NCBI GenBank assembly: GCA_964019335.1
Contig: OZ025716.1
Span: forward strand, 372,001 to 436,000
Length of the DNA: 64,000 nucleotides
Direction of reading: 5' to 3'
Source: Diplonema japonicum
Lineage: Eukaryota > Protista > Euglenozoa: Diplonemea
Below are positions 4,009 through 34,196 of this stretch, one piece after another. Positions within the stretch are counted from its first letter, which is position 1. Every line of letters starts with the position of its first letter. Made by a program: the position numbers and the translations under genes. Under the pieces are notes generated by a model. That model was not told the origin of the DNA. It ran no database searches and saw only the letters and a program-made list of their open reading frames with translations.

Positions 4009-6720
4009 ATGGAAGAAAAGAAGAGCGTGAAAGGGCACATCGAGCGCTTCTCAGCCGCGGTGCACAATGGAACAGAAAGGTTCTTCGAGAAGCTCAGCAC
4101 CCTTGTGGTGAACCACCCGGGAGTGACCATCGCCATCTGCGTCGTCTTCGCCGCCATCATGGCACAGGGCGTGTGGCTCTACGATGAGGAACTCTCTCCT
4201 GATAAACAGTTCACCCCACGTGACAGCCAGGCCGTCAACGAAGAGACCTGGGTGGTCGAGAGGTTCGGGAACAATGACAGAACCGTGTACCTGCAAGTGG
4301 AGGCTGATGAAGGGACGAACATGCTGACGAAGGCCTCGCTGTTGTACATGCAAGAGATGCACGAGTGGCTCCTGTCACAGTCGCTCATCGTGGACGGGGA
4401 GAACGTGACCTACAACGTGGTGTGCGCGAGGTACACTAAAGACGACGATTGCAAGTCTCCTGTCTCTGTTCTGTCCTTCTGGCAGCACAACAGAACCCTC
4501 CTTGAGGCTGACCCGAACCCTCTTTCCACCATCAACTCTGTGGACTGGAGGGACATTGAACCTTCTGGTCCACCCCTCTCTTACTACGTCGGCAGTGATG
4601 CTGTTCGTGATGCCAGTGGGGCGTTGGTGTCGACACGGGCCACGCGTATCACCTACAACCTGAAGAACGAGAAAAAGGAAATTTCTGGTAGTGGCAACGA
4701 CGACCCGCAGAGCAGGTACTTCGAGATCCTGGTTGCTGAGAAGTCTGCTGACAGGCGCTCGGCTGACAGGCAGGCACACAAGGCAGCCTCTTTCATCCGT
4801 ACTTCAGGTCAAGAGAAGCAGGCTAGCAGCAGCGCAATAAGTTCAGATGTCGGCAACCTGATCATGGGCTATGTTCTGATGCTTCTCTACGCTTCCTTCA
4901 TCCTGTCTCGTGGCCGTGCGAAGTACTCCCACTCACTGATTGGCTTAGCATCCGTTGTGTCCATTGGCCTGTCAACCTTCAGTGCCTACGGCCTCTGTTG
5001 GTACATCGGGATCAAGTTCAACACTGTCGTTCAGGTACTTGTCTTGGTGCTTCTCGGTGTTGGGATCGACGACACCTTTGTGATCATGGACTCCTGGTGG
5101 GACTGCTCCGAAATCCCCACAATGAAGGAGAGGATGATTGCGGCCATGAAGCATGCTGGTCCTGCGATCACAATCACATCTGTGACCGACCTCATCGCCT
5201 TCCTTGCTGGGTCCAGCACAGAGTTACCTGCTTTGCGTGACTTCTGCTACTACGCCACAATTGGAATTACGTTTTGCTTCATGTTCCAATGCACCTTTCT
5301 GGTAGCCATTGCATACTTTGACAGTGTGAGGCAGGATCGCGGTAGGTCAGATGTCCTGTGCTGTGTCTCTGTGGATGACGAGACAGGTGTGTGCGTGAAG
5401 ACGGAAGGGTGGACTGAGGGGCAGAGGGGTTTCCAGAACCGTGTTGTTGGGACGTACATGCCACGCCTTGTGCTTGGTACTCTTGTTGGCAAGGTGGTGG
5501 TCATCCTCATCTCTTGCTTCTTCTTCGGGCTTGGCATCTACGGGTGCACTGAGCTGAAGATGAACTTCAATGGCGAGTGGTTCATCCCCGACGGGCACGC
5601 CATCGAGGCAGCCATAGATGTGCGTGACACCTACTTCGCTGGACAGACCCTCCCTGCCAATGTGTACTTCGGTGACATCAACTACCCTCAGGAGCAGGAC
5701 ACGATGTTTGACTCACTTTCAGTCCTTCGTCGGAACAGGTGGGTGGTGGCGAACTCCACCTCATCATGGATGGAGGACTTCCAGCAGTGGGTGAAGAAGG
5801 AACACGTGGCGGACTGGGACCAGTCGGCTGGGAGGATCGTCCCTTCTCAGTTCTACAGGCTTCTTCGTGTGTTCGCCTCGACGGCAACAGGGCCCCGCAG
5901 TGCTTGGCAGCACATCGACAACATCAGGTGGAGCAGCAATGGCAGTGACTCGCTGGTCGCCTCTCGTGTGGGCTTCCTCATCGTTGGTGATGCTCTCGCA
6001 AACGGTGAAAATGCTGTGGACTGCATGGACAACCTTCGTGCTGATCTGTCTGGACCTGAGTTCCCTTGGGCCTTTCCGTTCCTGTTCTGGGAGTCTTACA
6101 AGCTGATGGTCCCAGAGATCACAAGGAACGTGGCCATTGCGGGGTCGTGTGTGTTCGTGCTGGTCACCATCATGATTGCGAACGTACAGCTGGGCCTCCT
6201 CGTGACCCTCGCAATCGGGTGTGTGGACGTGTGCATGCTTGGTTTCATGCCTTTCATCGGTGTTGAGCTGAACGGTGTGTCTGTGATCTGCATTGTGCTT
6301 GCTGTCGGTCTGAGTGTGGACTACAGTGTCCACATTGCAGGGGCCTTCCTTCATGTGAAGTGTGAGGATGGCGATGAGCACAGTGGGAGGACACAGCGTG
6401 CGGCCTTCGCATTATGGAAGATGGGCCCTGCTGTGGTGAATGGGGGGACCTCTACATTCATCGCGATCCTTCCGGCCGCCTTCGCTGTCTCATATGTGTT
6501 TAAGGTGTTCTTCAGGATGTTTGCGTTGATCATCTTCTTCGGGCAGTGGTTCGGGGTGTTCTTGCTTCCGGTGGTGCTGTCGTTGGTGGGGCCTGACCCG
6601 TACCTCACAGCTCCGGAGCTGAATGAGAAGCCTCAGCAGAACCCTCTTCACCCTGAACATGATGCTCCTGTCCAACCACAGAAGCCAGACTGCTCCCCTA
6701 CATCTGTTGAAATGATTTAA
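4009..6720 (+). CDS. Patched/NPC1-like RND sterol-sensing-domain protein, array copy 1 (903 aa)
   Basis: Two (1 TM + large luminal loop + 5 TM) halves. TM4 GVGIDDTF and TM10 GLSVDY (GxxxD) motifs; GPAITITSVTDLIAF and PALRDFC SSD signature; N-glycosylation sequons. No NPC1 N-terminal domain. Confidence 0.93.
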   Translation: MEEKKSVKGHIERFSAAVHNGTERFFEKLSTLVVNHPGVTIAICVVFAAIMAQGVWLYDEELSPDKQFTPRDSQAVNEETWVVERFGNNDRTVYLQVEADEGTNMLTKASLLYMQEMHEWLLSQSLIVDGENVTYNVVCARYTKDDDCKSPVSVLSFWQHNRTLLEADPNPLSTINSVDWRDIEPSGPPLSYYVGSDAVRDASGALVSTRATRITYNLKNEKKEISGSGNDDPQSRYFEILVAEKSADRRSADRQAHKAASFIRTSGQEKQASSSAISSDVGNLIMGYVLMLLYASFILSRGRAKYSHSLIGLASVVSIGLSTFSAYGLCWYIGIKFNTVVQVLVLVLLGVGIDDTFVIMDSWWDCSEIPTMKERMIAAMKHAGPAITITSVTDLIAFLAGSSTELPALRDFCYYATIGITFCFMFQCTFLVAIAYFDSVRQDRGRSDVLCCVSVDDETGVCVKTEGWTEGQRGFQNRVVGTYMPRLVLGTLVGKVVVILISCFFFGLGIYGCTELKMNFNGEWFIPDGHAIEAAIDVRDTYFAGQTLPANVYFGDINYPQEQDTMFDSLSVLRRNRWVVANSTSSWMEDFQQWVKKEHVADWDQSAGRIVPSQFYRLLRVFASTATGPRSAWQHIDNIRWSSNGSDSLVASRVGFLIVGDALANGENAVDCMDNLRADLSGPEFPWAFPFLFWESYKLMVPEITRNVAIAGSCVFVLVTIMIANVQLGLLVTLAIGCVDVCMLGFMPFIGVELNGVSVICIVLAVGLSVDYSVHIAGAFLHVKCEDGDEHSGRTQRAAFALWKMGPAVVNGGTSTFIAILPAAFAVSYVFKVFFRMFALIIFFGQWFGVFLLPVVLSLVGPDPYLTAPELNEKPQQNPLHPEHDAPVQPQKPDCSPTSVEMI

Positions 6721-7282
6721 AATAAAAGCTGGCAAGCCAGCAGGATGTTGTCTAATTTAAAAAAAAGAAAAACATGTTTTTTTTTTTTCAGTGAGGTTTG
6801 TTTACCCAGCTCAAGTCAGCAGGCTTGAACCGCTAAGGTCAAGGCTACTGCAACTTACAACCCCCCTTCACAGGACGGCATGAAAGTTCAAAAGACTATT
6901 CAATGTCCTGTCCAGTATCACCTTCGTCATTTCTTATTTTGCTTACTTTTCCGAAAAGAATAAAGGAAAACAATGTTTCTTTTTTGTTTTTTGTTTTTGT
7001 TTTTTATTCTGATCTCATTTGCTTTTGGAGCAAACCACTGGCTTCAACAAGGAAAGAGAACCCCTTATTTCTTTTTTGTCATTTTCCAATATTATTGGAC
7101 ACCTCTTTATTTCAATTTTTATCTTCGATTTTCTATCTTGGGCAACCTGTGTGTGCAGGTAAGGCAATAGACTTAGATCTACTTTCGAGCTGTTGTGCCC
7201 AGCCAATTCTTTTATTTTCTAATCGCATGCAATTATTCGATATCAATGATAGCATGCCATTGCAGCATTACAATACAACAAT

Positions 7283-10021: not shown

Positions 10022-11009
10022 ACAGTTAATGTTCAGGGATTTCTTTTTTAAAAAGCAGTTGTTTCATATCTGTCGAAAAAGTTCTTTTGTTTCTCTACTA
10101 CGCCACTACTATATTTGTAAAATTGTTGTTGTTTTTTTTTTTTTTTTAAATTTATTTTCTTTTTTTATATAGAACTAAGGAGTGTCTCTTGGAAGATACC
10201 TCTTAGGGTGTCTCGAAAGATTCCACATAGAATGGCTTCAAAACGGAATTTGTCGAAAATGAAAAAAGAAGAAACTACCAACCTGCCAGTAGAAGCTCTC
10301 TCTATTGGGTCCCGGTCACATTCCTGAGTTCTTTTTTTTAAAAAAGAAGAAAAAAAAAAAAAGAAAATAGCAAATTTGTGATCCATGCCTTAACGCTTCT
10401 TTTGCACAAATTGACACAGACCGCTGAGGTGCCGTTTGTCCGTTTATGCCCCCCCCCCTTTTTTTTGCTTCCGGGGAAAAAGAATTAAAGATTTAATAAG
10501 TTTTTATTCCCCTCCTTTCACTTCCCACTCCCTTTTTTTTTTTTTTTTTTTTTTTGGGCACCGATACCCACGATGATTTATTATGAACGGGGGACGGACT
10601 TCAAAGAAAAAAAAAACAAAACAAAAAAAAAACAAAAACTATTTGCTTTTGCTCCACTCTTACTAGAGGCCTCTACATGATAACGCGGATTGTATCATTA
10701 TTATCGAGAAGTCCCTTTTAGTCCCCCTTTCTATTTTCTTTTTTATATAACTTCTTCGTGAGTGATCGGAGAAGAGTTGGGAAGAACAACATAAGCCTGT
10801 GCCTTTACCACTACAGGTGAACTGTCGCAGGCCAATTCGTTTCCCCCCCCCATAAATAATCTAGTAGAATTTCTTCTTTTCCCTTACAAGAACAAGTGCC
10901 TGTGCTAAAAGAGAAAAAAGGGGGGAAGGAGGAATAAGTTGACTTGCTGACAGTTTCCTCTTTCCTCTCTATGGCCACGACAGGGGAGTCCGACTCTTCT
11001 TCTTCAAAG

Positions 11010-11110
11010 CCAAGCCGCTCCCCTCACCTAGCACGGCTCCAAATGTAATGTTTCTTTCGCCCAGATGCCGTCCATCTTCTCGCGAGAAGCAGTCAATCAA
11101 TTAGTGTGGA
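11010..11110 (+). mobile_element. Degenerate fragment of the LINE-like 3' end
   Basis: cctagcacggctccaa...aatgtttct..cgcccagatgccgtccatct...attagtgtg matches ~31195-31305 with deletions. Confidence 0.7.
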
Positions 11111-11291
11111 TCTTCTTCTTCTTTTTTCTTTTTTTTAATAAGGTTCTTTTCTTCTTTTTTTTCTTTTTATTTTTCTTGCTTGAACAAAGAAAGACTATGT
11201 ATTGATAATGAAATTGCTATTCTTGGGTGTATCTTCAGAGCTTAATCCCGGCTGTGCACAAAAACAACAAACCAGACTTTTTTTTTTTTAA

Positions 11292-11666
11292 AGGTCCCCT
11301 CGACAACCAAGATCTGCTCACAGAGAAGGCCGCAAGGATGCGATACATCTTGGGTCGCATCCAGAAATGTTCAGCACGCTGTGGAAGGTCAGTCTTCCCC
11401 GCCAACGCCGAATCAAGGGTGCATACCCTTCGACATCTTGGGGGCCCGACGGCACACGGCTACAACAGGAGACCACTCTTCTCCTCGAGCCAAACCCCCC
11501 CCTACCTAGCACGACTCCAAGCAATGTTTCTCGCCCAGATGCCGTCCATCTCATCGCGACAAACAGCCACCGCAGGCACCAGACAGCAACCGCAGAACGG
11601 TGACCGATTAGTGTGAATTTCTACCTGAACAGCACCCCCATGCACACTGAAATTTTATCGAGTTTT
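11292..11666 (+). mobile_element. 5'-truncated copy (~375 bp) of the LINE-like element at 30.0-31.36 kb
   Basis: Near-identical to 30990-31357 and ends at the same point (...ctgaaattttatcgagtttt). Confidence 0.88.
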
Positions 11667-11924
11667 AAATGAGTATACGCCGGAAAAAAGATGCCCCCCC
11701 CCACCCACCCACCCACCCCCTTTGCGAAAAGAAATAGAAATGAGAAAAAAAAAGGGGAACGAACCTTTTTTCATTCTGGGGGGGGGGACTATTTTTTTTA
11801 ACAGCGGGAAAGCAGCATGTTTATGAGCAGTTGAAATAGAATGGATAGTCGAGAAAGGTTCTGGTGGTCCTAGTGGCAGACCATCTGACAGCCCGAAATA
11901 GGGCGAGCAAGAGTGGGAAGAATG

Positions 11925-11973
11925 GCAGGCACCAGATAGCAACACCGCAGAACGGTGACCGATTAGTGTGAAC
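11925..11973 (+). mobile_element. Short fragment of the same LINE-like 3' end
   Basis: gcaggcaccagatagcaacaccgcagaacggtgaccgattagtgtgaa matches ~31263-31308. Confidence 0.75.
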
Positions 11974-12144
11974 TTTTTTTTTGATCAGATTTTAATGCCG
12001 CAATAACATAAGGGGGTCAATGTGAGCACCACGGTTAGCACGGCGACGCAGGCGGTGAGGGTCTCAAGACAGGTCTTGTGCGGCATGACCGGCTTGAAAC
12101 ACAAAGGAGGAACCCGGCAGAGCCCCCAGAACAGGGACAACTCG

Positions 12145-13167: not shown

Positions 13168-13187
13168 CTCTTCTTTTTCTTTTCAGG
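13168..13187 (+). promoter_or_regulatory. Putative trans-splice acceptor (representative example)
   Basis: Polypyrimidine tract then CAG|G 13 nt before the ATG. Analogous YAG|G (AG ending at 3986, 18923, 22824, 26458, 31394, 37513, 45756, 58768, 59229, 63053) lies shortly upstream of other ATGs. Confidence 0.55.
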
Positions 13188-13199
13188 TTAAAGCAAAAC

Positions 13200-15926
13200 A
13201 TGGAAAAGGACAAAAGCATCAAAGCTCGCATAGAGCGCTTCTCAGCCGCGGTGCACAATGGAACAGAAAGGTTCTTCGAGAAGCTCAGCACCCTTGTGGT
13301 GAACCACCCGGGAGTGACCATCGCCATCTGCGTCGTCTTCGCCGCCATCATGGCACAGGGCGTGTGGCTCTACGATGAGGAACTCTCTCCTGATAAACAG
13401 TTCAGTCCCCGTGACAGCCAGGCCGTCAACGAAGAGACCTGGGTGGTCGACAGGTTCGGGAATGAGAACAGACCTGTGTACCTGCAAGTGGAGGCTGATG
13501 AAGGGACGAACATGCTGACGAAGGCCTCGCTGTTGTACATGCAAGAGATGCACGAGTGGCTCCTGTCACAGTCGCTCATCGTGGACGGGGAGAACGTGAC
13601 CTACAACGTGGTGTGCGCGAGGTACACTAAAGACGATGATTGCATGTTTCCTGTATCTGTTCTGTCCTACTGGCAGCACAACAGAACCCTCCTTGAGGCT
13701 GACCCGAACCCTCTTTCCACCATCAACTCTGTTGACTGGAGAGACATTGAACCTTCTGGTCCACCCCTCTCTTACTACCTTGGCAGTGATGCTGTTCGTG
13801 ATGCCAGTGGGGCGTTGGTGTCGACACGGGCCACGCGTATCATCCACACACTGAAGAATGTGAAAGAGGAGATTTCTGGTATTGGTGACGACGACCCGCA
13901 GAGCAGGTACTTCGAGATCCTGGTTGCTGAGAAGTCTGCTGACAGGCGCTCAGCTGACAGGCAGGCACACAAAGCAGCTCCTTTCATTGTGACAATTGCG
14001 CAAGAAGAAGAGGCAGGCAACGATGCTGTTAACTCTGATGTCAGCAACCTGATCATGGGCTACATGCTGATGATTGCCTATGCCTCCTTCATCCTGTCTC
14101 GTGGCCGTGTGAAGTACTCCCACTCACTGATTGGCTTAGCATCCGTTGTGTCCATTGGCCTGTCAACCTTCAGTGCCTACGGCCTCTGCTGGTACATCGG
14201 GATCAAGTTCAACAATGTCGTTCAGGTGCTGATCTTGGTGCTTCTCGGTGTTGGGATCGACGACACCTTTGTGATCATGGACTCCTGGTGGGACTGCTAT
14301 GAAATCCCCACAATGAAGGAGAGGATGATTGCGGCACTGAAGCACGCTGGTCCTGCCATCACGATCACCTCTGTGACTGACCTTATCGCCTTCCTTGCTG
14401 GATCCAGCACTTCCTTCCCCGCCCTTCGTGACTTCTGCTACTACGCCACAATTGGAATCACCTTCGATTTTGTATTCCAATGTACATTCGTGGTAGCCAT
14501 TGCATACCTTGACAGTGTGAGGCAGGATCGCGGTAGGTCAGATGTCCTGTGCTGTGTCTCTGTGGATGACGAGACAGGTGTGTGCGTGAAGACGGAAGGG
14601 TGGACTGAGGGGCAGAGGGGTTTCCAGAACCGTGTTGTTGGGACGTACATGCCACGCCTTGTGCTTGGGACTGTCGTGGGCAAGGTGGTGGTCATCCTCA
14701 TCTCTTGCCTCCTCTTCGGGCTTGGCATCTACGGGTGCACTCAGGTGAAGATGAACTACAACAACGAGTGGTTCATCCCCGACGGGCACGCCATCGAGGC
14801 AGCCATGAATGTGCGCAACACTTACTTCACTGGACAGACCCTCCCTACTAATGTGTACTTCGGTGAACTCAACTACCCTCAGGAGCAGGACACGGTGATG
14901 AATGCTGGGTCAGTCCTTCGTCGGAACAGGTGGGTGGTGGCGAACTCCACCTCATCATGGATGGAGGACTTCCAGCAGTGGGTGAGGGAAGAGCACGTGG
15001 CGGACTGGGACCAGTCGGCTGGGAGGATCGTCCCTTCTCAGTTCTACAGGCTTCTTCGTGTGTTCGCCTCGACGGCAACAGGGCCCCGCAGTGCTTGGCA
15101 GCACATCGACAACATCAGGTGGAGCAGCAATGGCAGTGACTCGCTGGTCGCCTCTCGTGTGAGCTTCCTCATCGTTGGTGATGCTCTCACCGACGGTGAG
15201 GATGCTGTGGACTGCATGGACAACCTTCGTGCTGAGCTGTCTGGACCTGAGTTCCCTTGGGCATGGCCATTTGTCTTTTTCGAGTCTTACAAGCTGATGG
15301 TTCCCGAGATCACAAGGAACGTGGCCATTGCAGGGTCGTGTGTGTTCGTGCTGGTCACCATCATGATTGCGAACGTACAGCTGGGCCTCCTCGTGACCCT
15401 TGCAATCGGGTGTGTGGACGTGTGCATGCTTGGTTTCATGCCTTTCATCGGTGTTGAGCTGAACGGTGTGTCTGTGATCTGCATTGTGCTTGCTGTCGGT
15501 CTGAGTGTGGACTACAGTGTCCACATTGCAGGGGCCTTCCTTCATGTGAAGTGTGAGGATGGCGATGAGCACAGTGGGAGGACACAGCGTGCGGCCTTCG
15601 CATTATGGAAGATGGGCCCTGCTGTGGTGAATGGGGGGACCTCTACATTCATCGCGATCCTTCCGGCCGCCTTCGCTGTCTCATATGTGTTTAAGGTGTT
15701 CTTCAGGATGTTTGCGTTGATCATCTTCTTCGGGCAGTGGTTCGGGGTGTTCTTGCTTCCGGTGGTGCTGTCGTTGGTGGGGCCTGACCCGTACCTCACA
15801 GCTCCGGAGCTGAATGAGAAGCCTCAGCAGAACCCTCTTCACCCTGAACATGATGCTCCTGTCCAACCACAGAAGCCAGACTGCTCCCCTACATCGGCAG
15901 TTGAAGTAGAAGTAGAAATGAATTAA
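13200..15926 (+). CDS. Patched/NPC1-like RND SSD protein, copy 3 (908 aa)
   Basis: Start placed at ATG 13200 (MEKDKSIKAR, as in copy 2), downstream of a pyrimidine tract and AG at 13185-13186. Same motifs. Confidence 0.93.
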   Translation: MEKDKSIKARIERFSAAVHNGTERFFEKLSTLVVNHPGVTIAICVVFAAIMAQGVWLYDEELSPDKQFSPRDSQAVNEETWVVDRFGNENRPVYLQVEADEGTNMLTKASLLYMQEMHEWLLSQSLIVDGENVTYNVVCARYTKDDDCMFPVSVLSYWQHNRTLLEADPNPLSTINSVDWRDIEPSGPPLSYYLGSDAVRDASGALVSTRATRIIHTLKNVKEEISGIGDDDPQSRYFEILVAEKSADRRSADRQAHKAAPFIVTIAQEEEAGNDAVNSDVSNLIMGYMLMIAYASFILSRGRVKYSHSLIGLASVVSIGLSTFSAYGLCWYIGIKFNNVVQVLILVLLGVGIDDTFVIMDSWWDCYEIPTMKERMIAALKHAGPAITITSVTDLIAFLAGSSTSFPALRDFCYYATIGITFDFVFQCTFVVAIAYLDSVRQDRGRSDVLCCVSVDDETGVCVKTEGWTEGQRGFQNRVVGTYMPRLVLGTVVGKVVVILISCLLFGLGIYGCTQVKMNYNNEWFIPDGHAIEAAMNVRNTYFTGQTLPTNVYFGELNYPQEQDTVMNAGSVLRRNRWVVANSTSSWMEDFQQWVREEHVADWDQSAGRIVPSQFYRLLRVFASTATGPRSAWQHIDNIRWSSNGSDSLVASRVSFLIVGDALTDGEDAVDCMDNLRAELSGPEFPWAWPFVFFESYKLMVPEITRNVAIAGSCVFVLVTIMIANVQLGLLVTLAIGCVDVCMLGFMPFIGVELNGVSVICIVLAVGLSVDYSVHIAGAFLHVKCEDGDEHSGRTQRAAFALWKMGPAVVNGGTSTFIAILPAAFAVSYVFKVFFRMFALIIFFGQWFGVFLLPVVLSLVGPDPYLTAPELNEKPQQNPLHPEHDAPVQPQKPDCSPTSAVEVEVEMN

Positions 15927-18379: not shown

Positions 18380-18421
<42 letters not shown>

Positions 18422-18944: not shown

Positions 18945-21683
18945 ATGACGTCGGAGAAGAAGGACAACAGCATCAAAGCTCGCATAGAGCACCTATCAGC
19001 CGCCTTGCACAATGGAACAGAAAGGTTCTTTGAGAAGCTTGGTGGTCTCGTAGTGAATTACCCGGGAGCGACCATCGGCCTGTGTTTGCTGTTTGTTGTG
19101 ATCATGGCACAGGGAGTGTGGCTCTATGAGGAGGAACTGGCAGCTGACAAACAGTTCACCCCACGTGACAGCCAGGCCGTCAACGAAGAGACATGGGTGG
19201 TCGACAGGTTCGGTCATGAGAACAGACCTGTGTACCTGCAAGTGGAGGCTGATGATGGAACGAACATGCTGACGAAGGCCTCACTGCTGTACATGCAAGA
19301 GATGCACGAGTGGCTCCTGTCACAGTCGCTCATCGTGGACGGGGAGAACGTGACCTACAACGTGGTGTGCGCGAGGTACACTAAAGACGATGATTGCAAG
19401 TCTCCTGTCTCTGTTCTGTCCTACTGGCAGCACAACAGAACCCTCCTTGAGGCTGACCCGAACCCTCTTTCCACCATCAACTCTGTGGACTGGAGGGACA
19501 TTGAACCCTCTGGATCTCCGCTCTCCTTCTATTTAGGAGGTGATGCTGTTCGTGATGCCAGTGGGGCGTTGGTGTCGACACGGGCCACGCGTATCATTTA
19601 CAACCTGAAGAACGAGAAGGAAGATATTTCTGGCGTTGGCAACGACGACCCGCAGAGCAGGTACTTCGAGATCCTGGTTGCTGAGAAGTCTGCTGACAGG
19701 CGTTCGGCTGACAGGCAGGCACACAAAGCAGCTTCTTTCATCCTCACAACTGCTGAAGAAGAAGAGGCAGGCAACGAGGCTGTGACTGCAGATGTCGGCA
19801 AGCTGATCATTGGGTACGTTTTGATGCTTTTCTACGCCTCCTTCATCCTGTCTCGTGGCCGTGCGAAGTACTCCCACTCTCTTCTTGGTGTGGTTTCAGT
19901 CGCTGCAGTCGGTGCAGCCACCTTCAGTGCCTACGGCTTCTGTTGGTACATCGGAGTGAAGTTCAACAGCGTTGTTCAGGTACTTGTCTTGGTGCTTCTC
20001 GGTGTTGGGATCGACGACACCTTTGTGATCATGGACTCCTGGTGGGACTGCTCCGAAATCCCCACAATGAAGGAGAGGATGATTGCGGCACTGAAGCACG
20101 CTGGTCCTGCAGTCACGATCACCTCTGTGACCGACCTCATCGCCTTCCTTGCCGGGTCCAGCACAGAGTTACCTGCTTTGCGTGACTTCTGCTACTACGC
20201 TACTTTCGGTATCCTTTTCGTCTTCTTTTTCCAATGTACATTCGTGGTAGCCTTTGCATACCTTGACAGTGTGAGGCAGGAGCGCGGTAGGTCAGATATC
20301 CTGTGCTGTGTCCCTGTGGATGACGAGACAGGTGTGTGCGTGAAGAAGGACGGGTCGTGGACTGAGGGGGAGAAAGGCATTCAGAACCGTATTGTTGGGA
20401 CGCACATGCCACGCCTTGTGCTTGGTACTCTTGTTGGCAAGGTGGTGGTCATCCTCATCTCTTGCCTCCTCTTCGGGCTTGGCATCTACGGGTGCACTAA
20501 GGTGAAGATGAACTTCAACCAGGAATGGTTCATCCCCGACGGCGATGCCATCGAAGACGCCATGGATGTGCGTGACACCTACTTCAACGGGCAGAGCCTC
20601 CCTGCCAATGTGTACTTCAGTGACATCAACTACCCTCAGGAGCAGGACACGGTGCTGAATGCTGGGTCAGTCCTTCGCAAGAACATTTGGGTCACTCAGA
20701 ACTCCACCTCATCATGGATGGAGGATTTCCAGCAGTGGGTGAGGGAAGAGCACGTGGCGGACTGGGACCAGTCGGCTGGGAGGATCGTCCCTTCTCAGTT
20801 CTACAGGCTTCTTCGTGTGTTCGCCTCGACGGCAACAGGGCCCCGCAGTGCTTGGCAGCACATCGACAACATCAGGTGGAGCAGCAACGGGAGTGACTCG
20901 CTGGTCGCCTCCCGTGTGGGCTTCCTCATCGTTGGGCAAGCAGCAGGTGACGGGCAGGATGCCATCGACTGCATGGACAACCTTCGTGCTGAGCTGTCTG
21001 GATCTGAGTTTCCTTGGGCCTTTATGTTCCTGTTCTGGGAGTCTTACAAGCTGATGGTCCCAGAGATCACACAGAATGTGGCCATTGCAGGGTCGTGTGT
21101 GTTCGTGCTGGTCTCGTTGATGATTGCGAACATTCAGCTGGGCCTCCTCGTGGCACTCATTATAGGTTTCGTGGACGTTTGCATGATAGGTTTCATGCCT
21201 TTCATCGGTGTTGAGCTGAACGGTGTGTCTGTGATCTGCATTGTGCTTGCTGTCGGTCTGAGTGTGGACTACAGTGTCCACATTGCAGGGGCATTCCTTC
21301 AAATGAAGTGTGAGGATGGCGAGGGGCACAGTTCGAGATCGCAGCGTGCCGCTTACGCTTTGTGGAAGATGGGCCCTGCTGTGGTGAATGGGGGGACCTC
21401 CACCTTCATTGCAGTCCTTCCAGCCGCGATGGCGGTCTCATATGTGTTCCAGGTGTTCTTCAGGATGTTTGTGTTGATCATCTTCTTCGGGCAGTGGTTC
21501 GGGGTGTTCTTGCTTCCGGTGGTGCTGTCATTTGTGGGGCCTGACGCGTACCTCACCGCTCCGGAGCTGAAGCCGCGTGAAAACCCCCTTCACCCTGAAC
21601 ATGATGATCCGGTGGCTACTACAACGAAGGGCACGACACCTGTTGATGTTGAAATGGCTGAGGTTAGCGAAGCACATCCCTGA
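18945..21683 (+). CDS. Patched/NPC1-like RND SSD protein, copy 4 (912 aa)
   Basis: Same motifs; carries more private substitutions in TM1, TM3, TM8-9 and the C-terminal region than its neighbours. Confidence 0.93.
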   Translation: MTSEKKDNSIKARIEHLSAALHNGTERFFEKLGGLVVNYPGATIGLCLLFVVIMAQGVWLYEEELAADKQFTPRDSQAVNEETWVVDRFGHENRPVYLQVEADDGTNMLTKASLLYMQEMHEWLLSQSLIVDGENVTYNVVCARYTKDDDCKSPVSVLSYWQHNRTLLEADPNPLSTINSVDWRDIEPSGSPLSFYLGGDAVRDASGALVSTRATRIIYNLKNEKEDISGVGNDDPQSRYFEILVAEKSADRRSADRQAHKAASFILTTAEEEEAGNEAVTADVGKLIIGYVLMLFYASFILSRGRAKYSHSLLGVVSVAAVGAATFSAYGFCWYIGVKFNSVVQVLVLVLLGVGIDDTFVIMDSWWDCSEIPTMKERMIAALKHAGPAVTITSVTDLIAFLAGSSTELPALRDFCYYATFGILFVFFFQCTFVVAFAYLDSVRQERGRSDILCCVPVDDETGVCVKKDGSWTEGEKGIQNRIVGTHMPRLVLGTLVGKVVVILISCLLFGLGIYGCTKVKMNFNQEWFIPDGDAIEDAMDVRDTYFNGQSLPANVYFSDINYPQEQDTVLNAGSVLRKNIWVTQNSTSSWMEDFQQWVREEHVADWDQSAGRIVPSQFYRLLRVFASTATGPRSAWQHIDNIRWSSNGSDSLVASRVGFLIVGQAAGDGQDAIDCMDNLRAELSGSEFPWAFMFLFWESYKLMVPEITQNVAIAGSCVFVLVSLMIANIQLGLLVALIIGFVDVCMIGFMPFIGVELNGVSVICIVLAVGLSVDYSVHIAGAFLQMKCEDGEGHSSRSQRAAYALWKMGPAVVNGGTSTFIAVLPAAMAVSYVFQVFFRMFVLIIFFGQWFGVFLLPVVLSFVGPDAYLTAPELKPRENPLHPEHDDPVATTTKGTTPVDVEMAEVSEAHP

Positions 21684-22855: not shown

Positions 22856-25612
22856 ATGGACAAGGATCCAGCTTTAAAGGTCGATGAGGTGGAACAGAGT
22901 GGCTGTAAGTATCGCCTTGAGCGCTTCTCAGCCGCGGTGCACAATGGAACAGAGAAGGCCTTCGAGAAGCTCAGCACCCTTGTGGTAAACCACCCGGGAG
23001 TGACCATCGCCATCTGCGTCGTCTTCGCCGCCATCATGGCACAGGGCGTGTGGCTCTACGATGAGGAACTCGCTTCTGATAAGCAGTTCACCCCACGTGA
23101 CAGCCGTGCGGTGGAAGACCAAGATTGGGTGGTCGACAGGTTCGGCCACGAGGATCGTACTGTTTACCTGCAGACACTTGGCACCGATGGAACGAACATG
23201 CTGACGAAGGCCTCGCTGCTGTACATGCAAGAGATGCACGAGTGGCTCCTGTCACAGTCGCTCATCGTGGACGGGGAGAACGTGACCTACAACGTGGTGT
23301 GCGCGAGGTACACTAAAGACGACGATTGCAAGTCTCCTGTCTCTGTTCTGTCCTACTGGCAGCACAACAGAACCCTCCTTGAGGCCGACCCGAACCCTCT
23401 TTCCACCATCAACTCTGTTGACTGGAGGGACATTGAACCTTCTGGTCCACCCCTCTCTTACTACGTCGGCAGTGATGCTGTTCGTGATGCCAGTGGGGCG
23501 TTGGTGTCGACACGGGCCACGCGTATCATTTACAACCTGAAGAACGAGAAGGAAGATATTTCTGGCGTTGGCAACGACGACCCGCAGAGCAGGTACTTCG
23601 AGATCCTGGTTGCTGAGAAGTCTGCTGACAGGCGTTCGGCTGACAGGCAGGCACACAGCGCTGAAGCCTACATTCTTACAGAGGGCCAAGAAGAAGAGGC
23701 CGGCGACGAGGCGACGGGCTCCGACGTGGCTAGCCTGATCATTGGGTACATGTTGATGTTTACGTATGCCTCCTTCATCCTGTCTCGTGGCCGTGTGAAG
23801 TACTCCCACTCTATTCTTGGTTTAGTGTCAGTTGTGTCCATCGGCTTGTCAACCTTCAGTGCCTACGGCCTCTGCTGGTACATCGGGATCAAGTTCAACA
23901 ATGTCGTTCAGGTGCTGATCTTGGTGCTTCTCGGTGTTGGGATCGACGACACCTTTGTGATCATGGACTCCTGGTGGGACTGCTATGAAATCCCCACAAT
24001 GAAGGAGAGGATGATTGCGGCCATGAAGCACGCTGGTCCTGCAGTCACGATCACCTCTGTGACCGACCTCATCGCCTTCCTTGCCGGATCTGGCACTGCT
24101 TTCCCCGCCCTTCGTGACTTCTGCTACTACGCTACTTTCGGCATCCTTTTCGATTTTGTGTTCCAATGCACATTCGTGGTAGCCATTGCATACCTTGACA
24201 GTGTGAGGCAGGAGCACGGTAAAGCAGACTGTCTGTGCTGTGTCTCTGTGGATGACGAGACAGGTGTGTGCGTGAAGAAGGACGGGTGGACGGAAGGGGA
24301 GAGGGGCATTCAAAACCGTGTTGTTGGGACGCACATGCCACGCCTTGTGCTTGGTAATGTTGTTGGCAAGGTGGTGGTCATCCTCATCTCCTGCTTCTTC
24401 TTAGGAATTGGCATCTACGGGTGCACTAAGGTGAAGATGAACTTCAACAAAGAGTGGTTCATCCCCGACGGGCACGCCATCGAGGCAGCCATGGATGTGC
24501 GCAACAACTACTTCAGCGGCGAGAGCCTCCCTGCCAATGTGTACTTCGGTGACCTCAACTACCCTCAGGAGCAGGACACGGTGCTGAACTCACTTTCAGT
24601 CCTTCGTCGGAACAGGTGGGTGGTGGCGAACTCCACCTCATCATGGATGGAGGACTTCCAGCAGTGGGTGAGGGAAGAGCACGTGGCGGACTGGGACCAG
24701 TCGGCTGGGAGGATCGTCCCTTCTCAGTTCTACAGGCTTCTTCGTGTGTTCGCCTCGACGGCAACAGGGCCCCGCAGTGCTTGGCAGCACATCGACAACA
24801 TCAGGTGGAGCAGCAACGGGAGTGACCTTATCGCCTCCCGTTCGGGCTTCTTCATTGTTGGCAGCACGCTATCGGAAAGCGAGGATGCCATCGACTGCAT
24901 GGACAACCTTCGTGCTGAGCTGTCTGGACCTGAGTTCCCTTGGGCTTTTCCATTCATCTTCTGGGAGTCTTACAAGCTGATGGTCCCCGAGATCACAAGG
25001 AACGTGGCCATTGCAGGATCGTGTGTGTTCGTGCTGGTCACCATCATGATTGCGAACGTACAGCTGGGCCTCCTCGTGACCCTTGCGATTGGATGTGTGG
25101 ACGTGTGCATGATAGGCTTCATGCCTTTCATCGGTGTTGACCTAAACAGTGTGTCTGTGATCTGCATTGTGCTTGCTGTCGGTCTGAGTGTGGACTACAG
25201 TGTCCACATTGCAGGGGCCTTCCTTCATGTGAAGTGTGAGGATGGCGATGAGCACAGTGGGAGGACACAGCGTGCGGCCTTCGCATTATGGAAGATGGGC
25301 CCTGCTGTGGTGAATGGGGGGACCTCTACATTCATCGCTGTGATGCCACTTGCCTTCGCTGTCTCATATGTGTTCTCTGTGTTCTTCAGGATGTTTACGC
25401 TGATCATCTTCTTCGGGCAGTGGTTCGGGGTGTTCTTGCTTCCGGTGGTGCTGTCGTTGGTGGGGCCTGACCCGTACCTCACAGCTCCGGAGCTGAATGA
25501 GAAGCCTCAGCAGAACCCTCTTCACCCTGAACATGATGCTCCAATGGATGTGACAAAGATGTCTGACTACAACTCACCTCTGAGTAATGCGGGAGATGTA
25601 GAGGCAGTGTGA
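22856..25612 (+). CDS. Patched/NPC1-like RND SSD protein, copy 5 (918 aa)
   Basis: Same motifs; shares QTLGTDGTN, GSGTAFP, IASRSGF and VDLNSV variants with copy 6. Confidence 0.93.
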   Translation: MDKDPALKVDEVEQSGCKYRLERFSAAVHNGTEKAFEKLSTLVVNHPGVTIAICVVFAAIMAQGVWLYDEELASDKQFTPRDSRAVEDQDWVVDRFGHEDRTVYLQTLGTDGTNMLTKASLLYMQEMHEWLLSQSLIVDGENVTYNVVCARYTKDDDCKSPVSVLSYWQHNRTLLEADPNPLSTINSVDWRDIEPSGPPLSYYVGSDAVRDASGALVSTRATRIIYNLKNEKEDISGVGNDDPQSRYFEILVAEKSADRRSADRQAHSAEAYILTEGQEEEAGDEATGSDVASLIIGYMLMFTYASFILSRGRVKYSHSILGLVSVVSIGLSTFSAYGLCWYIGIKFNNVVQVLILVLLGVGIDDTFVIMDSWWDCYEIPTMKERMIAAMKHAGPAVTITSVTDLIAFLAGSGTAFPALRDFCYYATFGILFDFVFQCTFVVAIAYLDSVRQEHGKADCLCCVSVDDETGVCVKKDGWTEGERGIQNRVVGTHMPRLVLGNVVGKVVVILISCFFLGIGIYGCTKVKMNFNKEWFIPDGHAIEAAMDVRNNYFSGESLPANVYFGDLNYPQEQDTVLNSLSVLRRNRWVVANSTSSWMEDFQQWVREEHVADWDQSAGRIVPSQFYRLLRVFASTATGPRSAWQHIDNIRWSSNGSDLIASRSGFFIVGSTLSESEDAIDCMDNLRAELSGPEFPWAFPFIFWESYKLMVPEITRNVAIAGSCVFVLVTIMIANVQLGLLVTLAIGCVDVCMIGFMPFIGVDLNSVSVICIVLAVGLSVDYSVHIAGAFLHVKCEDGDEHSGRTQRAAFALWKMGPAVVNGGTSTFIAVMPLAFAVSYVFSVFFRMFTLIIFFGQWFGVFLLPVVLSLVGPDPYLTAPELNEKPQQNPLHPEHDAPMDVTKMSDYNSPLSNAGDVEAV

Positions 25613-26471: not shown

Positions 26472-29216
26472 ATGGGCAAAACCCAAACTGAAGAGCAGCC
26501 TGCGCAGAGTAATGGATTAACCCATCGCCTTGAACGAGTGTCTGCAAAAATGCACACCGGCACAGAGAAGGGCTTCGGACAGCTCACCATACAGGTAGTG
26601 AACCACCCGGGAGTGACTGTTGCCATCTGCGTCGTCTTCTTCATAGTAATGTTCCAGGGCGTGTGGCTCTACGATGAGGAACTGGCAGCTGACAAGCTCT
26701 TCACTCCGCAAGACAGTGATGCTGCAGAGGACGAGACTTGGGTGGTCGACAGGTTCGGCAACGAAGACAGAACTGTTTACCTGCAGACACTTGGCACCGA
26801 TGGAACGAACATGCTGACGAAAGCCTCGCTGCTGTACATGCAAGAGATGCACGAGTGGCTCCTGTCACAGTCGCTCATCGTGGACGGGGAGGACGTGACC
26901 TACAACGTGGTGTGCGCGAGGTACACTAAAGACGATGATTGCAAGTCTCCTGCTTCTATTCTGTCCTACTGGCAGCACAACAGAACCCTCCTTGAGGCTG
27001 ACCCGAACCCTCTTTCCACCATCAACTCTGTTGACTGGAGGGACATTGAACCCTCTGGTCCGGACCTTTCTTATTACATCAGCAGTGATGCTGTTCGTGA
27101 TGCCAGTGGGGCGTTGGTGTCGACACGGGCCACGCGTATCACTTACAATCTGAAGAACGAGAAGGAAGATATTTCTGGAAAGGGAGTAGATGACCCGCAG
27201 TGCAGGTACTTCGAGATCCTGGTTGCTGAGAAGTCTGCTGACAGGCGCTCGGCTGACAGGCAGGCACACAGCGCTGAAACTTACATTTTGACAGAAGGGG
27301 AAGAAGCAGAAGCTGGTATTGAGGCAGGTCAGGATGACATTGCAAGCTTGTTCATTGGGTACTTTTTGATGCTTTTCTACGCTTCCTTCGTCCTGTCTCG
27401 TGGCCGTGTGAAGTACTCCCACTCTATTCTTGGTTTAGTGTCAGTTGTGTCCATTGGCCTGTCAACCTTCAGTGCCTACGGCCTCTGCTGGTACATCGGG
27501 ATCAAGTTCAACACTGTCGTTCAGGTACTTGTCTTGGTGCTTCTCGGTGTTGGGATCGACGACACCTTTGTGATCATGGACTCTTGGTGGGACTGCTCCG
27601 AAATCCCCACAATGAAGGAGAGGATGATTGCGGCCATGAAGCACGCTGGTCCTGCCATCACAATCACATCTGTGACCGACCTCATCGCCTTCCTTGCCGG
27701 ATCTGGCACTGCTTTCCCCGCCCTTCGTGATTTCTGCTACTACGCTACTTTCGGTATCCTTTTCGATTTTGTGTTCCAATGCACATTCGTGGTAGCCATT
27801 GCATACTTTGACAGTGTGAGGCAGGAGAGCAGTAGGTCAGACTGTCTGTGTTGTGTCCCTGTGGATGACGAGACAGGTGTGTGCGTGAAGAAGGACGGGT
27901 CGTGGACTGAGGGGGAGAAAGGCATTCAGAACCGTATTGTTGGGACGCACATGCCACGCCTTGTGCTTGGTACTCTTGTTGGCAAGGTGGTGGTCATCCT
28001 CATCTCCTGCTTCTTCTTAGGAATTGGCATCTACGGGTGCACTGAACTGAAGATGAACTTCAACCAGGAATGGTTCATCCCCGACGGGCACGCCATCGAA
28101 GACGCCATAGATGTGCGTGACAACTACTTCAGCGGCGAGAGCCTCCCTGCCAATGTGTACTTCGGTGACATCAACTACCCTCAGGAGCAGGACACGGTGC
28201 TGAACTCACTTTCAGTCCTTCGTCGGAACAGGTGGGTGGTGGAAAACTCCACCTCATCATGGATGGAGGACTTCCAGCAGTGGGTGAAGAAGGAGCACGT
28301 GGCGGACTGGGACCAGTCGGCTGGGAGGATCGTCCCTTCTCAGTTCTACAGGCTTCTTCGTGTGTTCGCCTCGACGGCAACAGGGCCCCGCAGTGCTTGG
28401 CAGCACATCGACAACATCAGGTGGAGCAGCAATGGCAGTGTCCTCATCGCCTCCCGTTCGGGCTTTCACATCATCGGCGCACCTTTATCTGACAGCGAGG
28501 ATGCTGTGGACTGCATGGACAACCTTCGTGCTGAGCTGTCTGGATCTGAGTTCCCTTGGACCTTTATGTTCCTGTTCTGGGAGTCTTACAAGCTGATGAT
28601 TCCCGAGATCACAAGGAACGTGGCCATTGCAGGGTCGTGTGTGTTCGTGCTGGTCACCATCATGATTGCGAACGTACAGCTGGGCCTCCTCGTGACCCTT
28701 GCAATCGGGTGTGTGGACGTGTGCATGCTCGGTTTCATGCCTTTCATCGGTGTTGACTTAAACAGTGTGTCTGTGATCTGCATTGTGCTTGCTGTCGGTC
28801 TGAGTGTAGATTACAGTGTCCACATTGCAGGGGCCTTCCTTCATGTGAAGTGTGAGGATGGCGATGAGCACAGTGGGAGGACACAGCGTGCGGCCTTCGC
28901 ATTATGGAAGATGGGCCCTGCTGTGGTGAATGGGGGGACCTCTACATTCATCGCTGTGATGCCACTTGCCTTCGCTGTCTCATATGTGTTCTCTGTGTTC
29001 TTCAGGATGTTTGCGTTGATCATCTTCTTCGGGCAGTGGTTCGGGGTGTTCTTCCTTCCGGTGGTGCTGTCATTTGTGGGGCCTGACCCGTACCTCACAG
29101 CTCCGGAGCTGAATGAGAAGCCGCATGAGAACCCTCTTCACCCTGAACATGATGCTCCTGTTGTTGAGGAGGTAGAAGAGATGAGCCCCACAGCAGAAGT
29201 AGAAAGAACCGTATAG
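26472..29216 (+). CDS. Patched/NPC1-like RND SSD protein, copy 6 (914 aa)
   Basis: Same motifs; colinear paralogue. Confidence 0.93.
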   Translation: MGKTQTEEQPAQSNGLTHRLERVSAKMHTGTEKGFGQLTIQVVNHPGVTVAICVVFFIVMFQGVWLYDEELAADKLFTPQDSDAAEDETWVVDRFGNEDRTVYLQTLGTDGTNMLTKASLLYMQEMHEWLLSQSLIVDGEDVTYNVVCARYTKDDDCKSPASILSYWQHNRTLLEADPNPLSTINSVDWRDIEPSGPDLSYYISSDAVRDASGALVSTRATRITYNLKNEKEDISGKGVDDPQCRYFEILVAEKSADRRSADRQAHSAETYILTEGEEAEAGIEAGQDDIASLFIGYFLMLFYASFVLSRGRVKYSHSILGLVSVVSIGLSTFSAYGLCWYIGIKFNTVVQVLVLVLLGVGIDDTFVIMDSWWDCSEIPTMKERMIAAMKHAGPAITITSVTDLIAFLAGSGTAFPALRDFCYYATFGILFDFVFQCTFVVAIAYFDSVRQESSRSDCLCCVPVDDETGVCVKKDGSWTEGEKGIQNRIVGTHMPRLVLGTLVGKVVVILISCFFLGIGIYGCTELKMNFNQEWFIPDGHAIEDAIDVRDNYFSGESLPANVYFGDINYPQEQDTVLNSLSVLRRNRWVVENSTSSWMEDFQQWVKKEHVADWDQSAGRIVPSQFYRLLRVFASTATGPRSAWQHIDNIRWSSNGSVLIASRSGFHIIGAPLSDSEDAVDCMDNLRAELSGSEFPWTFMFLFWESYKLMIPEITRNVAIAGSCVFVLVTIMIANVQLGLLVTLAIGCVDVCMLGFMPFIGVDLNSVSVICIVLAVGLSVDYSVHIAGAFLHVKCEDGDEHSGRTQRAAFALWKMGPAVVNGGTSTFIAVMPLAFAVSYVFSVFFRMFALIIFFGQWFGVFFLPVVLSFVGPDPYLTAPELNEKPHENPLHPEHDAPVVEEVEEMSPTAEVERTV

Positions 29217-30012: not shown

Positions 30013-31357
30013 CCAGTTCGGGATGAGAAACCCCGTGTCAGTACTGAACGTTCTGCTGCCAGGGCATACGGCACATCCGTTGTCGAAGGTCATCTACGGA
30101 ACGATAAACAGCTTGGTCCGGGAGAGCCTGGCCTCTCCGCGTTTGCGGCAGCGTGTTGGTGAGATCATTGGTCTATACCAGGACCGCGATGACGATGAGG
30201 TGATGGGTCCGATTGGAGTCCTGCGGAACAGATGGCACCCCTTTCTGGGGAAGGGATGGTCCTTTGTACAGCGGTGGGGCAAGCCATCAGACCGGCATTG
30301 CGAAGAGGCTGATCGAGAAGAGATCAACCTTCGTGGGGATGGAGGCAGGGGCGTGCCCGTCCACGAACTATTGGTGGAAAAAGCTCCAGGCCCGGAGACC
30401 GTTGGTGTCCTTTAGGTTGCGGCGCATCATTAGTGGTGCAGTGTTCACGACTCACGAGGGGAGGGTGTGGGGGAGAAAATTGGATGGCCCTGGTGTGGAA
30501 AACCCAGCATTAGCGTGTGACGTTTGCGACCACCGGTCCCAGACAACGACCAGCATGACGGAGCATGCACTGTGGGAGTGCGAGCCGGCAAGGAGTGTGT
30601 TGGAAAGCGAGCAATACGCAGAGGAGAAGGCCTCCCAGCTGCCACAGCCCTTCACGGGATAGTCCCAAGAGGGGCCGACAAAGCAGGGAAAGAACGTGCC
30701 AGGATGGTGCAACAATACCTCCTGAAAGTAGTGACGGTCCGTGACGCCAGAGCAGCGGAAAAAAGCAAGAGAGTGCTCACCTCCAACCCTTGGGATGAGG
30801 TAACGACAGGGAGGCAACATGATGTTCCGTTGCTGAAGGCGAACGGGGCGTCAGGCGCGGTCCTGACCTTTCATTTGAAGAACGTCCTCAAGTGGCTAAG
30901 AGGCCTACGATGGTACGATGGTAAGAAGAAAACTTCCGTCACGACAATGGAACTCGCCATAGACTATGAGCAGACCACCCGCCGGTCATAGGTCCCCTCG
31001 ACGATCAAGACCTGCTCACGGAGAAGGCCGCAAGGATGCGATACATCTTGGGTCGCATCCAGAAATGCTCAGCACGCTGTGGAAGGTCAGCCTTCCCCGC
31101 CAACGCCAAATCAAGGGTGCATACCCTTCGACATCTTGGGGGCCCGACGGCACACGGCTAGACCACTCTTCTCCTCGAGCCAAACCCCCCCCCTACCTAG
31201 CACGACTCCAAGCAATGTTTCTCGCCCAGATGCCGTCCATCTCATCGCGACAAACAGCCACCGCAGGCACCAGACAGCAACCGCAGAACGGTGACCGATT
31301 AGTGTGAATTTCTACCTGAACAGCACCCCCATGCACACTGAAATTTTATCGAGTTTT
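30013..31357 (+). mobile_element. 5'-truncated, frameshifted non-LTR retrotransposon (3' part of RT ORF with CCHC knuckle)
   Basis: CDVCDHRSQTTTSMTEHALWEC is a C-x2-C-x11-H-x4-C zinc knuckle typical of LINE ORF2 C-termini. GC-rich island in an AT-rich spacer; the 3' end is repeated at 11.0-12.0 kb. 5' boundary approximate. Confidence 0.8.

Positions 31358-34196: not shown

What the first reader, a model, noticed from the sequence alone, without database searches (positions are those of the whole stretch)
4009..34196. Seven-gene tandem array of Patched-like sterol/lipid transporters with variation focused at specific luminal sites
Seen: seven intact 903-926 aa paralogues, all retaining both GxxxD motifs and lacking the NPC1 N-terminal domain. 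Differences recur at the same short sites: post-TM1 (SPDKQF/SEEKQF/AADKQF/ASDKQF/AADKLF/AGDKQF), the pre-TM2 neck helix, post-TM7 (NFNGEW/NYNNEW/NFNQEW/NFNKEW), ALANGE/ALTDGQ/AAGDGQ/TLSESE/PLSDSE, and WAFPFLFWE/WAWPFVFFE/WAFMFLFWE/WTFMFLFWE. Known: in PTCH1 and NPC1 the luminal domains and neck form a sterol conduit, and large Patched-related expansions are best known from nematodes. Inference: a protist repertoire of lipid/sterol transporters or sensors with diversified ligand specificity, independent of Hedgehog signalling.
Basis: partly seen in the sequence, partly recalled or inferred. Interest (0 to 1): 0.78.

Follow-up and report, generated by a model that had tools for sequence, protein, structure and literature searches.

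The report
Diplonemid Patched-like lipid transporter gene array
A marine flagellate carries seven intact side-by-side genes for Patched/NPC1-type membrane proteins; copying between the genes has made most of their length alike but spared the parts predicted to form the base of the lipid tunnel, so each copy likely handles somewhat different lipids.

Summary
Confirmed: seven intact single-ORF paralogues (903-926 aa), each with both GxxxD motifs and no NPC1 N-terminal domain. The predicted fold matches NPC1L1/NPC1/PTCH1 (TM 0.74-0.81). Homologues place the window in Diplonema, most likely D. japonicum, whose transcripts carry segments specific to copies 1, 4 and 6.

New here: the array undergoes gene conversion (identical tracts to 494 nt), and silent and amino-acid divergence peak together in the membrane-proximal luminal elements, above all Neck helix 2. 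The distal luminal insertions are nearly identical between copies, although they diverge as fast as the proximal parts between species: proximal/insertion ratio 2.1-12.5 in 21 of 21 array pairs, 0.8-1.4 in 13 control pairs. A second, distantly related diplonemid gene set shows the same profile (rho 0.61, 0 of 811 shifts), and two smaller cases peak at Neck 2.

Best reading: ion-driven lipid transporters with copy-specific tunnel bases protected from conversion (0.55). Main rival: structural incompatibility of chimeras. Substrate untested. The scan had not reported this before.

The parts
4009..6720 (+). Patched/NPC1-type gene, copy 1 (903 aa)
   Evidence: AlphaFold model pLDDT 82.8; copy-specific ALANGE segment in D. 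japonicum transcript P0049
7283..10021 (+). copy 2 (912 aa)
   Evidence: junction with copy 1 bridged by one unitig, 6675-7338
13200..15926 (+). copy 3 (908 aa from ATG 13200, which aligns with the other starts; upstream in-frame ATG at 13098)
   Evidence: 494-nt tract identical to copy 1
18945..21683 (+). copy 4 (912 aa), the most distinct in TM3 and TM9-10
   Evidence: all 905 8-mers of transcript P0047 occur in array proteins, 392 of them only in copy 4
22856..25612 (+). copy 5 (918 aa)
   Evidence: start held by unitigs
26472..29216 (+). copy 6 (914 aa)
   Evidence: copy-specific b3-Neck2 segment in transcripts P0001 and P0049
31416..34196 (+). copy 7 (926 aa), the most divergent overall yet sharing a 419-nt identical tract with copies 1 and 3
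37170..37266 (+). relic of an eighth copy (33 codons of TM4 onward, one codon missing)
4804..4857 (+). Neck helix 2 of copy 1 (residues 266-283): the highest divergence peak (aa diversity 0.54, pS 0.82)
4375..4632 (+). distal insertion of luminal domain 1 in copy 1 (residues 123-208): homogenised (0.08 within array, 0.67 between lineages)
5731..5952 (+). distal insertion of luminal domain 2 in copy 1 (residues 575-648): homogenised (0.06 within array, 0.70 between lineages)

Best explanation
The array is seven intact Patched/NPC1-type genes of a Diplonema that exchange sequence by gene conversion, and each likely encodes an ion-gradient-driven lipid transporter whose tunnel base is likely tuned to a different lipid or gating behaviour, which would be why selection removes conversion tracts there. 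Shown: intact genes, conversion, divergence peaks at the membrane-proximal luminal elements, and recurrence of the profile in other diplonemids. Predicted: the 12-TM fold with two luminal domains. Inferred from PTCH1/NPC1: the TM4 DD and TM10 D triad couples ion flow to movement of a lipid through the cavity enclosed by Linker1, Neck2, Linker7 and Neck8. Inferred from a relative: location at the cell membrane. Inferred only: different substrates per copy, and a substrate possibly more polar than free cholesterol.
For: Conversion: identical tracts of 410-494 nt between copies otherwise 84-94% alike; the nearest copy changes block by block; the longest run of shared polymorphic sites exceeds shuffles in 21 of 21 pairs, and in 7 of 21 on silent sites alone at p<0.05. 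pS ranges from 0.00 to 0.70 along the gene and tracks pN. Proximal/insertion divergence ratio: 2.1-12.5 in 21 of 21 array pairs, at least 3.1 in 6 of 6 pairs of a second gene set, 0.77-1.41 in 13 of 13 control pairs. The second set (P0013, P0054, P0015, P0022) groups with Rhynchopus, far from this array (quick tree). Profiles correlate at rho 0.61, reached by 0 of 811 shifts; neither correlates significantly with between-lineage divergence. A near-identical pair has 3 of its 6 differences at Neck2 (p 1e-4). Two Flectonema isoforms differ at 39 sites, all in hairpin-to-TM2 or helix a2'-to-Neck8/TM8. Peaks of divergence under conversion are a described signature of selection on duplicates, as in red/green opsins (PMC3924837, passages). 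Triad intact in 7 of 7 and in all 16 other diplonemid homologues checked. Four Patched-family proteins of P. papillatum are assigned to the cell membrane (PMC12697944 supplement).
Against: Codon models on the five peak blocks, each with its own tree, give omega 0.25 and no gain of M2a over M1a (LRT 0.0). Mapped tunnel positions vary at 8 of 16 against 274 of 825 (p 0.13) here, and 8 of 16 against 197 of 825 (p 0.02) in the second set; core aromatics F68, F525, F693 and Y288 are invariant in this array. No coordinates were available to sort tunnel-facing from buried residues. TM8-12 and the gene ends also carry differences. The second set is taken as one locus only from a shared contig length; tandem order is not shown, and the Flectonema case is Trinity isoforms. 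One simulation paper reports that blocking the PTCH1 extracellular tunnel did not disrupt function (PMC10446486, passage heading). A Patched-like knockout in Phytophthora sojae had no phenotype (PMC8530017, abstract).
Confidence: 0.55

Rival explanations
1. The copies do the same job (dosage or expression subfunctionalisation). Peaks persist because the proximal elements pack against segments far away in sequence, so a converted piece makes a misfit chimera, whereas the self-contained insertions swap freely.
For: Omega is about 0.25 in peaks and no positively selected class appears. Mapped tunnel residues are not enriched. The insertions are single contiguous modules in the model, and the same structural logic would hold in every lineage, explaining the repeated profile.
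Against: TM8-12, rich in long-range contacts, is homogenised at silent sites as much as the insertions (pS 0.14 against 0.11-0.15). An otherwise almost identical pair still concentrates differences at Neck2. The array is visibly mosaic, so many chimeras are tolerated.
Confidence: 0.27
2. Neutral escape from conversion: stretches that happened to diverge became too unlike to convert, so the peaks feed themselves with no selection for difference.
For: Silent divergence is highest exactly where protein divergence is (pS 0.82 in Neck2). Gene ends are variable, as expected next to unique flanks.
Against: Peaks should then be random or follow weak constraint. They recur in an independent lineage (0 of 597 shifts with gene ends left out) and do not follow orthologue divergence (rho 0.19, p 0.23).
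Confidence: 0.1
3. The proteins are lipid-gated sensors or receptors for external ligands or toxins rather than bulk transporters, with the neck cavity as the binding site.
For: The same cavity binds Hedgehog palmitate in PTCH1 and itraconazole in NPC1 (PMC6952396, passages). The SSD proline (NPC1 P691) is V or I in 20 of 20 diplonemid homologues.
Against: The charged triad that PTCH1 needs for activity (10.1101/352443, passages) is invariant. The exposed distal insertions, which dock partners in NPC1 and AcrB by the same paper, are the least variable part.
Confidence: 0.07
4. Assembly artefact: alleles or haplotypes laid in tandem.
For: Long identical tracts could confuse an assembler.
Against: Seven copies at dS 0.15-0.56, unrelated spacers, unitigs at similar depth matching several flanks exactly and one bridging copies 1-2, and copy-specific segments in transcripts.
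Confidence: 0.01

Closest known systems
PTCH1 (Patched 1)
   Same: Best PDB sequence match (E 4e-56); profile alignment over 850 columns at probability 100; GxxxDD/GxxxD triad; no N-terminal luminal domain; W115, I766 and F1017 positions hold F.
   Different: About 24% identity; short cytoplasmic loop and tail; TM10 has D, not E; L114 position mostly Q and L427 position E; no Hedgehog or Smoothened link tested.
NPC1 / NPC1L1 / yeast NCR1
   Same: Best fold matches (NPC1L1 TM 0.81, NPC1 0.78, NCR1 0.74); R404 and the luminal cysteines are conserved with fungal NCR1.
   Different: No N-terminal sterol-binding domain or its TM; P691 replaced by V/I; I609, L613 and F403 positions are E, G/S and D/N/K; GxxxDD rather than GxxxDN.
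C. elegans patched-related (PTR) family
   Same: NTD-less Patched-like expansion without Smoothened: 24 ptr genes (PMC3078328, abstract start in listing).
   Different: That expansion is recalled as old, dispersed and highly divergent; this one is a tandem array at 77-92% identity under conversion. No sequence comparison with PTRs was made here.
Widespread protist NTD-less Patched-like proteins (P. papillatum 'Patched-related protein 9', choanoflagellate and stramenopile homologues, Phytophthora PsPTL, PfNCR1)
   Same: Same size and domain layout; 2348 clusters score at E<=1e-30 against the diplonemid profile, a count that includes NPC1/PTCH-type proteins; named hits include Salpingoeca and Pinguiococcus.
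   Different: No tandem array or conversion pattern found in print in five searches. The diplonemid clade has a more polar neck.
Converting duplicates with selected divergence peaks (red/green opsins, RHD/RHCE, protocadherins)
   Same: Low divergence along most of the gene with local peaks (PMC3924837, passages).
   Different: Seven copies of an RND/SSD transporter, with the peak recurring in separate lineages; the function of the peak is not yet demonstrated as it is for opsins.

Membership tests
Eukaryotic RND / sterol-sensing-domain proteins (Patched-NPC1 group) | SSD (PF12349) and Patched (PF02460) domains | tested here: met
   7 of 7 above cut-off
Eukaryotic RND / sterol-sensing-domain proteins (Patched-NPC1 group) | 12-TM pseudo-symmetric fold with two luminal alpha-beta sandwich domains | tested here: met
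   Model of copy 1, pLDDT 82.8; Foldseek TM 0.74-0.81 to NPC1L1, NPC1, PTCH1, NCR1; 0.55-0.57 to Dispatched
Eukaryotic RND / sterol-sensing-domain proteins (Patched-NPC1 group) | Charged triad GxxxDD (TM4) and GxxxD/E (TM10) | tested here: met
   D354, D355, D771 in 7 of 7
Eukaryotic RND / sterol-sensing-domain proteins (Patched-NPC1 group) | Transport of sterol or other lipid | not testable with these tools
   Needs an assay; inferred from homology only
NPC1/NCR1 proper | N-terminal sterol-binding domain plus a 13th TM | tested here: not met
   No Pfam hit; in-frame stop 2-37 codons upstream of each start. An upstream exon behind an intron was not separately excluded, but a complete transcript ORF starts at the same Met as copy 4.
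NPC1/NCR1 proper | SSD proline (P691) and hydrophobic neck residues I609, L613 | tested here: not met
   V/I, E and G/S at these positions; the register at 269 differs by aligner for PTCH1
Patched as Hedgehog receptor | Binds Hedgehog and represses Smoothened | not testable with these tools
   No genome held to search for Hedgehog or Smoothened; their absence outside animals and near relatives is recalled knowledge
Multigene family under concerted evolution | Conversion tracts and mosaic relationships; paralogues closer than orthologues | tested here: met
   the array forms one clade with an eighth D. japonicum copy (support 96, quick tree)
Gene family under diversifying (positive) selection | Sites with dN/dS above 1 | tested here: not met
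   M2a equals M1a, omega 0.25 in 228 peak codons; power is low with 7 sequences and high dS

The most novel reading that the evidence does not exclude
Diplonemids have repeatedly built arrays of cell-surface Patched-like transporters in which a common docking module is kept identical by conversion while a polar, copy-specific tunnel neck selects different lipids, including non-cholesterol or polar-headed ones scavenged from algal prey. This would be a natural specificity series for the Patched/NPC1 tunnel.
Probability: 0.3. Interest if true: 0.78.

Novelty: new variant of a known kind. Interest (0 to 1): 0.55.

Why it matters
What PTCH1-like proteins transport and what sets their selectivity is still debated. 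Seven natural variants that are almost identical in the distal luminal modules and much of the membrane core, but differ at the tunnel base, give a ready-made panel for swap experiments. The repeated profile in other diplonemids points to Neck helix 2 and strand b3 as candidate specificity determinants. It also suggests that an abundant group of marine heterotrophs has expanded lipid uptake as well as its known carbohydrate-degrading enzymes.

Tried and rejected
Whole-genome copy number and a search for Hedgehog, Smoothened or sterol synthesis genes: no genome held. Positive selection: none detected. Enrichment of mapped tunnel residues: not significant in this array. Surface-antigen or virus-evasion reading: rejected because the most exposed insertions are the least variable. 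Relaxed constraint as the cause of the peaks: rejected by 13 control pairs. Expression from raw reads: no RNA holder listed, so the only expression evidence is EukProt transcripts, which are Trinity mosaics. Reads were laid on 3000-22900 only; the second half of the array remains unchecked. The tree is the quick IQ-TREE search; the careful search did not finish, and 5 fragmentary proteins of 33 were left out. Literature searches for diplonemid+patched, patched-related+expansion+protist+sterol-sensing and Patched+NPC1+paralogs+gene conversion+tandem returned 0 papers. The D. papillatum genome paper has no 'patched', 'Niemann' or 'sterol' in its main text, and PMC7052976 has none either; their supplements were not read and may bear on this. 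Earlier scan findings: none by sequence, one unrelated by words. No complex prediction was run, as no binding is claimed.

Full report
Observation. The window holds seven stop-free ORFs of 903-926 aa on the + strand between 4009 and 34196, with spacers of 562-3178 bp. All seven match Pfam Sterol-sensing and Patched above cut-off and keep GVGIDD and GLSVD. A 97-nt relic of another copy lies at 37170-37266. Core identity between copies is 77-92% aa, dS 0.15-0.56, and dN/dS 0.25-0.34 in all 21 pairs.

Origin and reality. The closest homologues are EukProt transcripts of Diplonema japonicum, then D. ambulator, Flectonema, Rhynchopus and D. papillatum (49%). All 905 8-mers of transcript P0047 occur in array proteins, 392 of them only in copy 4. 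Other isoforms carry segments unique to copies 1 and 6, and an N-terminal half found in none of the seven, so at least one more copy lies outside the window. Unitigs of public runs laid on 3000-22900 match the flanks of copies 1-5 with no other letters at similar low depth, and one bridges copy 1 to copy 2.

Fold. An AlphaFold model of copy 1 from a 26-sequence alignment has pLDDT 82.8 and pTM 0.75. It matches NPC1L1, NPC1, PTCH1, NCR1 and PfNCR1 at TM 0.69-0.81, and Dispatched and MmpL at about 0.57. By sequence PTCH1 is the best PDB hit. The N-terminal domain of NPC1 is absent. I used the model's secondary structure to divide the protein into TM segments, membrane-proximal luminal elements (linkers, sandwich strands and helices, neck helices) and the two distal insertions, following the sandwich-plus-insertion layout described for PTCH1 (10.1101/352443, passages).

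Gene conversion. Copies share identical tracts of up to 494 nt (1/3), 419 nt (7 with 1 and 3) and 410 nt (1/2), and a tract of about 140 nt in luminal domain 2 is shared by most pairs. Silent divergence ranges from 0.00 to 0.70 in 20-codon windows and rises and falls with non-synonymous divergence. The nearest copy changes from block to block. The longest run of shared polymorphic sites beats 2000 shuffles in 21 of 21 pairs; on the 195 silent sites in invariant columns, 7 of 21 pairs reach p<0.05.

Where the differences sit. Amino-acid diversity within the array is 0.25 in 258 proximal luminal columns, 0.07 in 160 insertion columns and 0.11 in 358 TM columns; between 15 other diplonemid proteins it is 0.65, 0.69 and 0.38. 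Neck2 (0.54, pS 0.82) and strand b3 (0.49) are the peaks. Because the wide comparison is near saturation, I also used closer pairs. The proximal/insertion ratio is 0.77-1.41 (median 1.07) in 13 of 13 non-array pairs and 2.1-12.5 (median 3.7) in 21 of 21 array pairs. The out-of-window copy is not homogenised in insertion 1 (19-25 differences in 86). The pattern therefore belongs to converting copies and is not explained by weak constraint.

Recurrence. Their ratio is at least 3.1 in 6 of 6 pairs. Their window profile correlates with this array at rho 0.61 (0 of 811 circular shifts as high), 0.68 in luminal windows only, and 0.63 with gene ends left out (0 of 597); correlations with between-lineage divergence are 0.10-0.22 and not significant. 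A second ENA pair differs at 6 of 929 residues, 3 of them at Neck2 (p 1e-4), though its proximal/insertion contrast alone is not significant (p 0.16). Two Flectonema isoforms differ at 39 sites, 28 from the hairpin to TM2 and 11 from helix a2' to Neck8/TM8. A divergent pair sharing another contig length (P0020, P0024) shows no such contrast (0.94). Tandem order is not shown for any of these sets.

Relation to the tunnel. [quoted passage not shown] I mapped 16 positions implicated in these papers, in 10.1101/352443 and in PMC10446486 through HMM alignments. Eight vary in the array (64, 67, 90, 273, 339, 345, 549, 689) and eight do not; against 274 of 825 elsewhere this is p 0.13. In the second set it is 8 of 16 against 197 of 825, p 0.02. 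PTCH1 P155 could not be placed unambiguously and was left out. The aromatic core is fixed while its neighbours change. In 20 diplonemid homologues the L380/L114 position is Q in 11 (L in 118 of 140 wider relatives), the I609 position is mostly E or Q, the L613 position is A, G, S or E, and P691 is V or I in all 20 (P in 90 of 140) (at least two of the 140 are also diplonemids). This suggests a roomier, more polar neck than in cholesterol transporters. It is an inference, and the register at 269 shifts for PTCH1 between aligners.

Selection. My codon models on five peak blocks (228 codons, a separate tree per block) give omega 0.25; M2a does not improve on M1a (LRT 0.0). Omega is 0.26 in b3-Neck2, 0.22 in the insertions and 0.18 in the TM core. 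The peaks are thus old divergence kept under purifying selection, not fast adaptive change. In linkers and necks the copies differ by 21-38%, as much as copy 1 differs from D. ambulator (32%), against 2-11% versus 32% in the insertions. A local peak under conversion is a described signature of selection preserving a difference between duplicates (PMC3924837, passages), but it does not say what the difference does.

Mechanism. Shown: intact genes, conversion, the peak profile and its recurrence. Inferred: ion-coupled lipid movement, since the triad that PTCH1 requires is invariant. Inferred: cell-membrane location, since four Patched-family proteins of P. papillatum, among them one named Patched-related protein 9 (SVM score 0.40; matched to P0014 by name only), are assigned there, and the paper mentions cell-membrane sterol transporters enriched in rich medium. 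Best reading (0.55): copies tuned to different lipids or gating, protected from conversion at the tunnel base. Main rival (0.27): same function, with chimeras disfavoured where distant segments pack together. Neutral escape (0.10), sensor (0.07) and artefact (0.01) are less likely. The direction of transport is unknown.

Known and new. The proteins belong to a widespread NTD-less Patched-like group of eukaryotes. They work like PTCH1/NPC1 by inference but are not NPC1 proper, and nothing ties them to Hedgehog. Searches found no description of such an array or of conversion in this family; subscription journals and most supplements were not searched. Papers seen: passages of PMC6534611, 10.1101/352443, PMC6952396, PMC10446486, PMC3924837, PMC10161547, PMC2698682 and PMC12697944 (plus its supplement file 1, cut when stored); the first of three parts of 10.1101/508325; the abstract of PMC8530017; term counts only for PMC7052976; listing only for PMC3078328.

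Verdict. A real array in a known family with an unreported evolutionary architecture.

Noticed in passing
window 37170-37266 (+): Decayed relic of an eighth Patched-like copy, 90-94% identical to copies 1-6 over about 100 nt, just upstream of the next gene.
   Followed up: yes
window 16280-18271, ORF 16685-17272 (-): High-copy element between copies 3 and 4 (unitig depth about 100-400 times the unique flanks). The ORF resembles by eye the C-terminal end of a piggyBac-type transposase (recalled); no Pfam hit.
   Followed up: partly
window 11292-11666 and 30990-31357: A 376-bp repeat at 96% identity in two spacers, inside a very high-copy region; probably a mobile-element fragment.
   Followed up: partly
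window 3202-3900 (+): A 233-codon open frame upstream of copy 1 in a multi-copy region; no Pfam hit.
   Followed up: partly
window 37379-39505 (+): Non-canonical poly(A) polymerase / TUTase-like gene, weak Pfam MTPAP and PAP_assoc hits below cut-off.
   Followed up: no
window 43690-45489 (+): Carboxylesterase family gene (PF00135, E 2e-98) about 10 kb from the array; any link to lipid uptake is untested.
   Followed up: no
window 45766-49431 and 50197-55452 (+): Two large cysteine-rich proteins with apparent signal peptides and a C-terminal TM, sharing blocks of 318-495 nt at 97-99% identity, also within one gene: a second case of conversion or domain duplication. No Pfam hit.
   Followed up: partly
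window 59251-62412 (+): GH123_N family glycoside hydrolase-like gene (E 6e-188) in a GC-rich stretch, in line with the carbohydrate enzymes known in diplonemids.
   Followed up: no
P0003, P0050, P0051 (D. ambulator): Isoforms with one body and three different C-terminal tails, which may be a collapsed array in that species.
   Followed up: no
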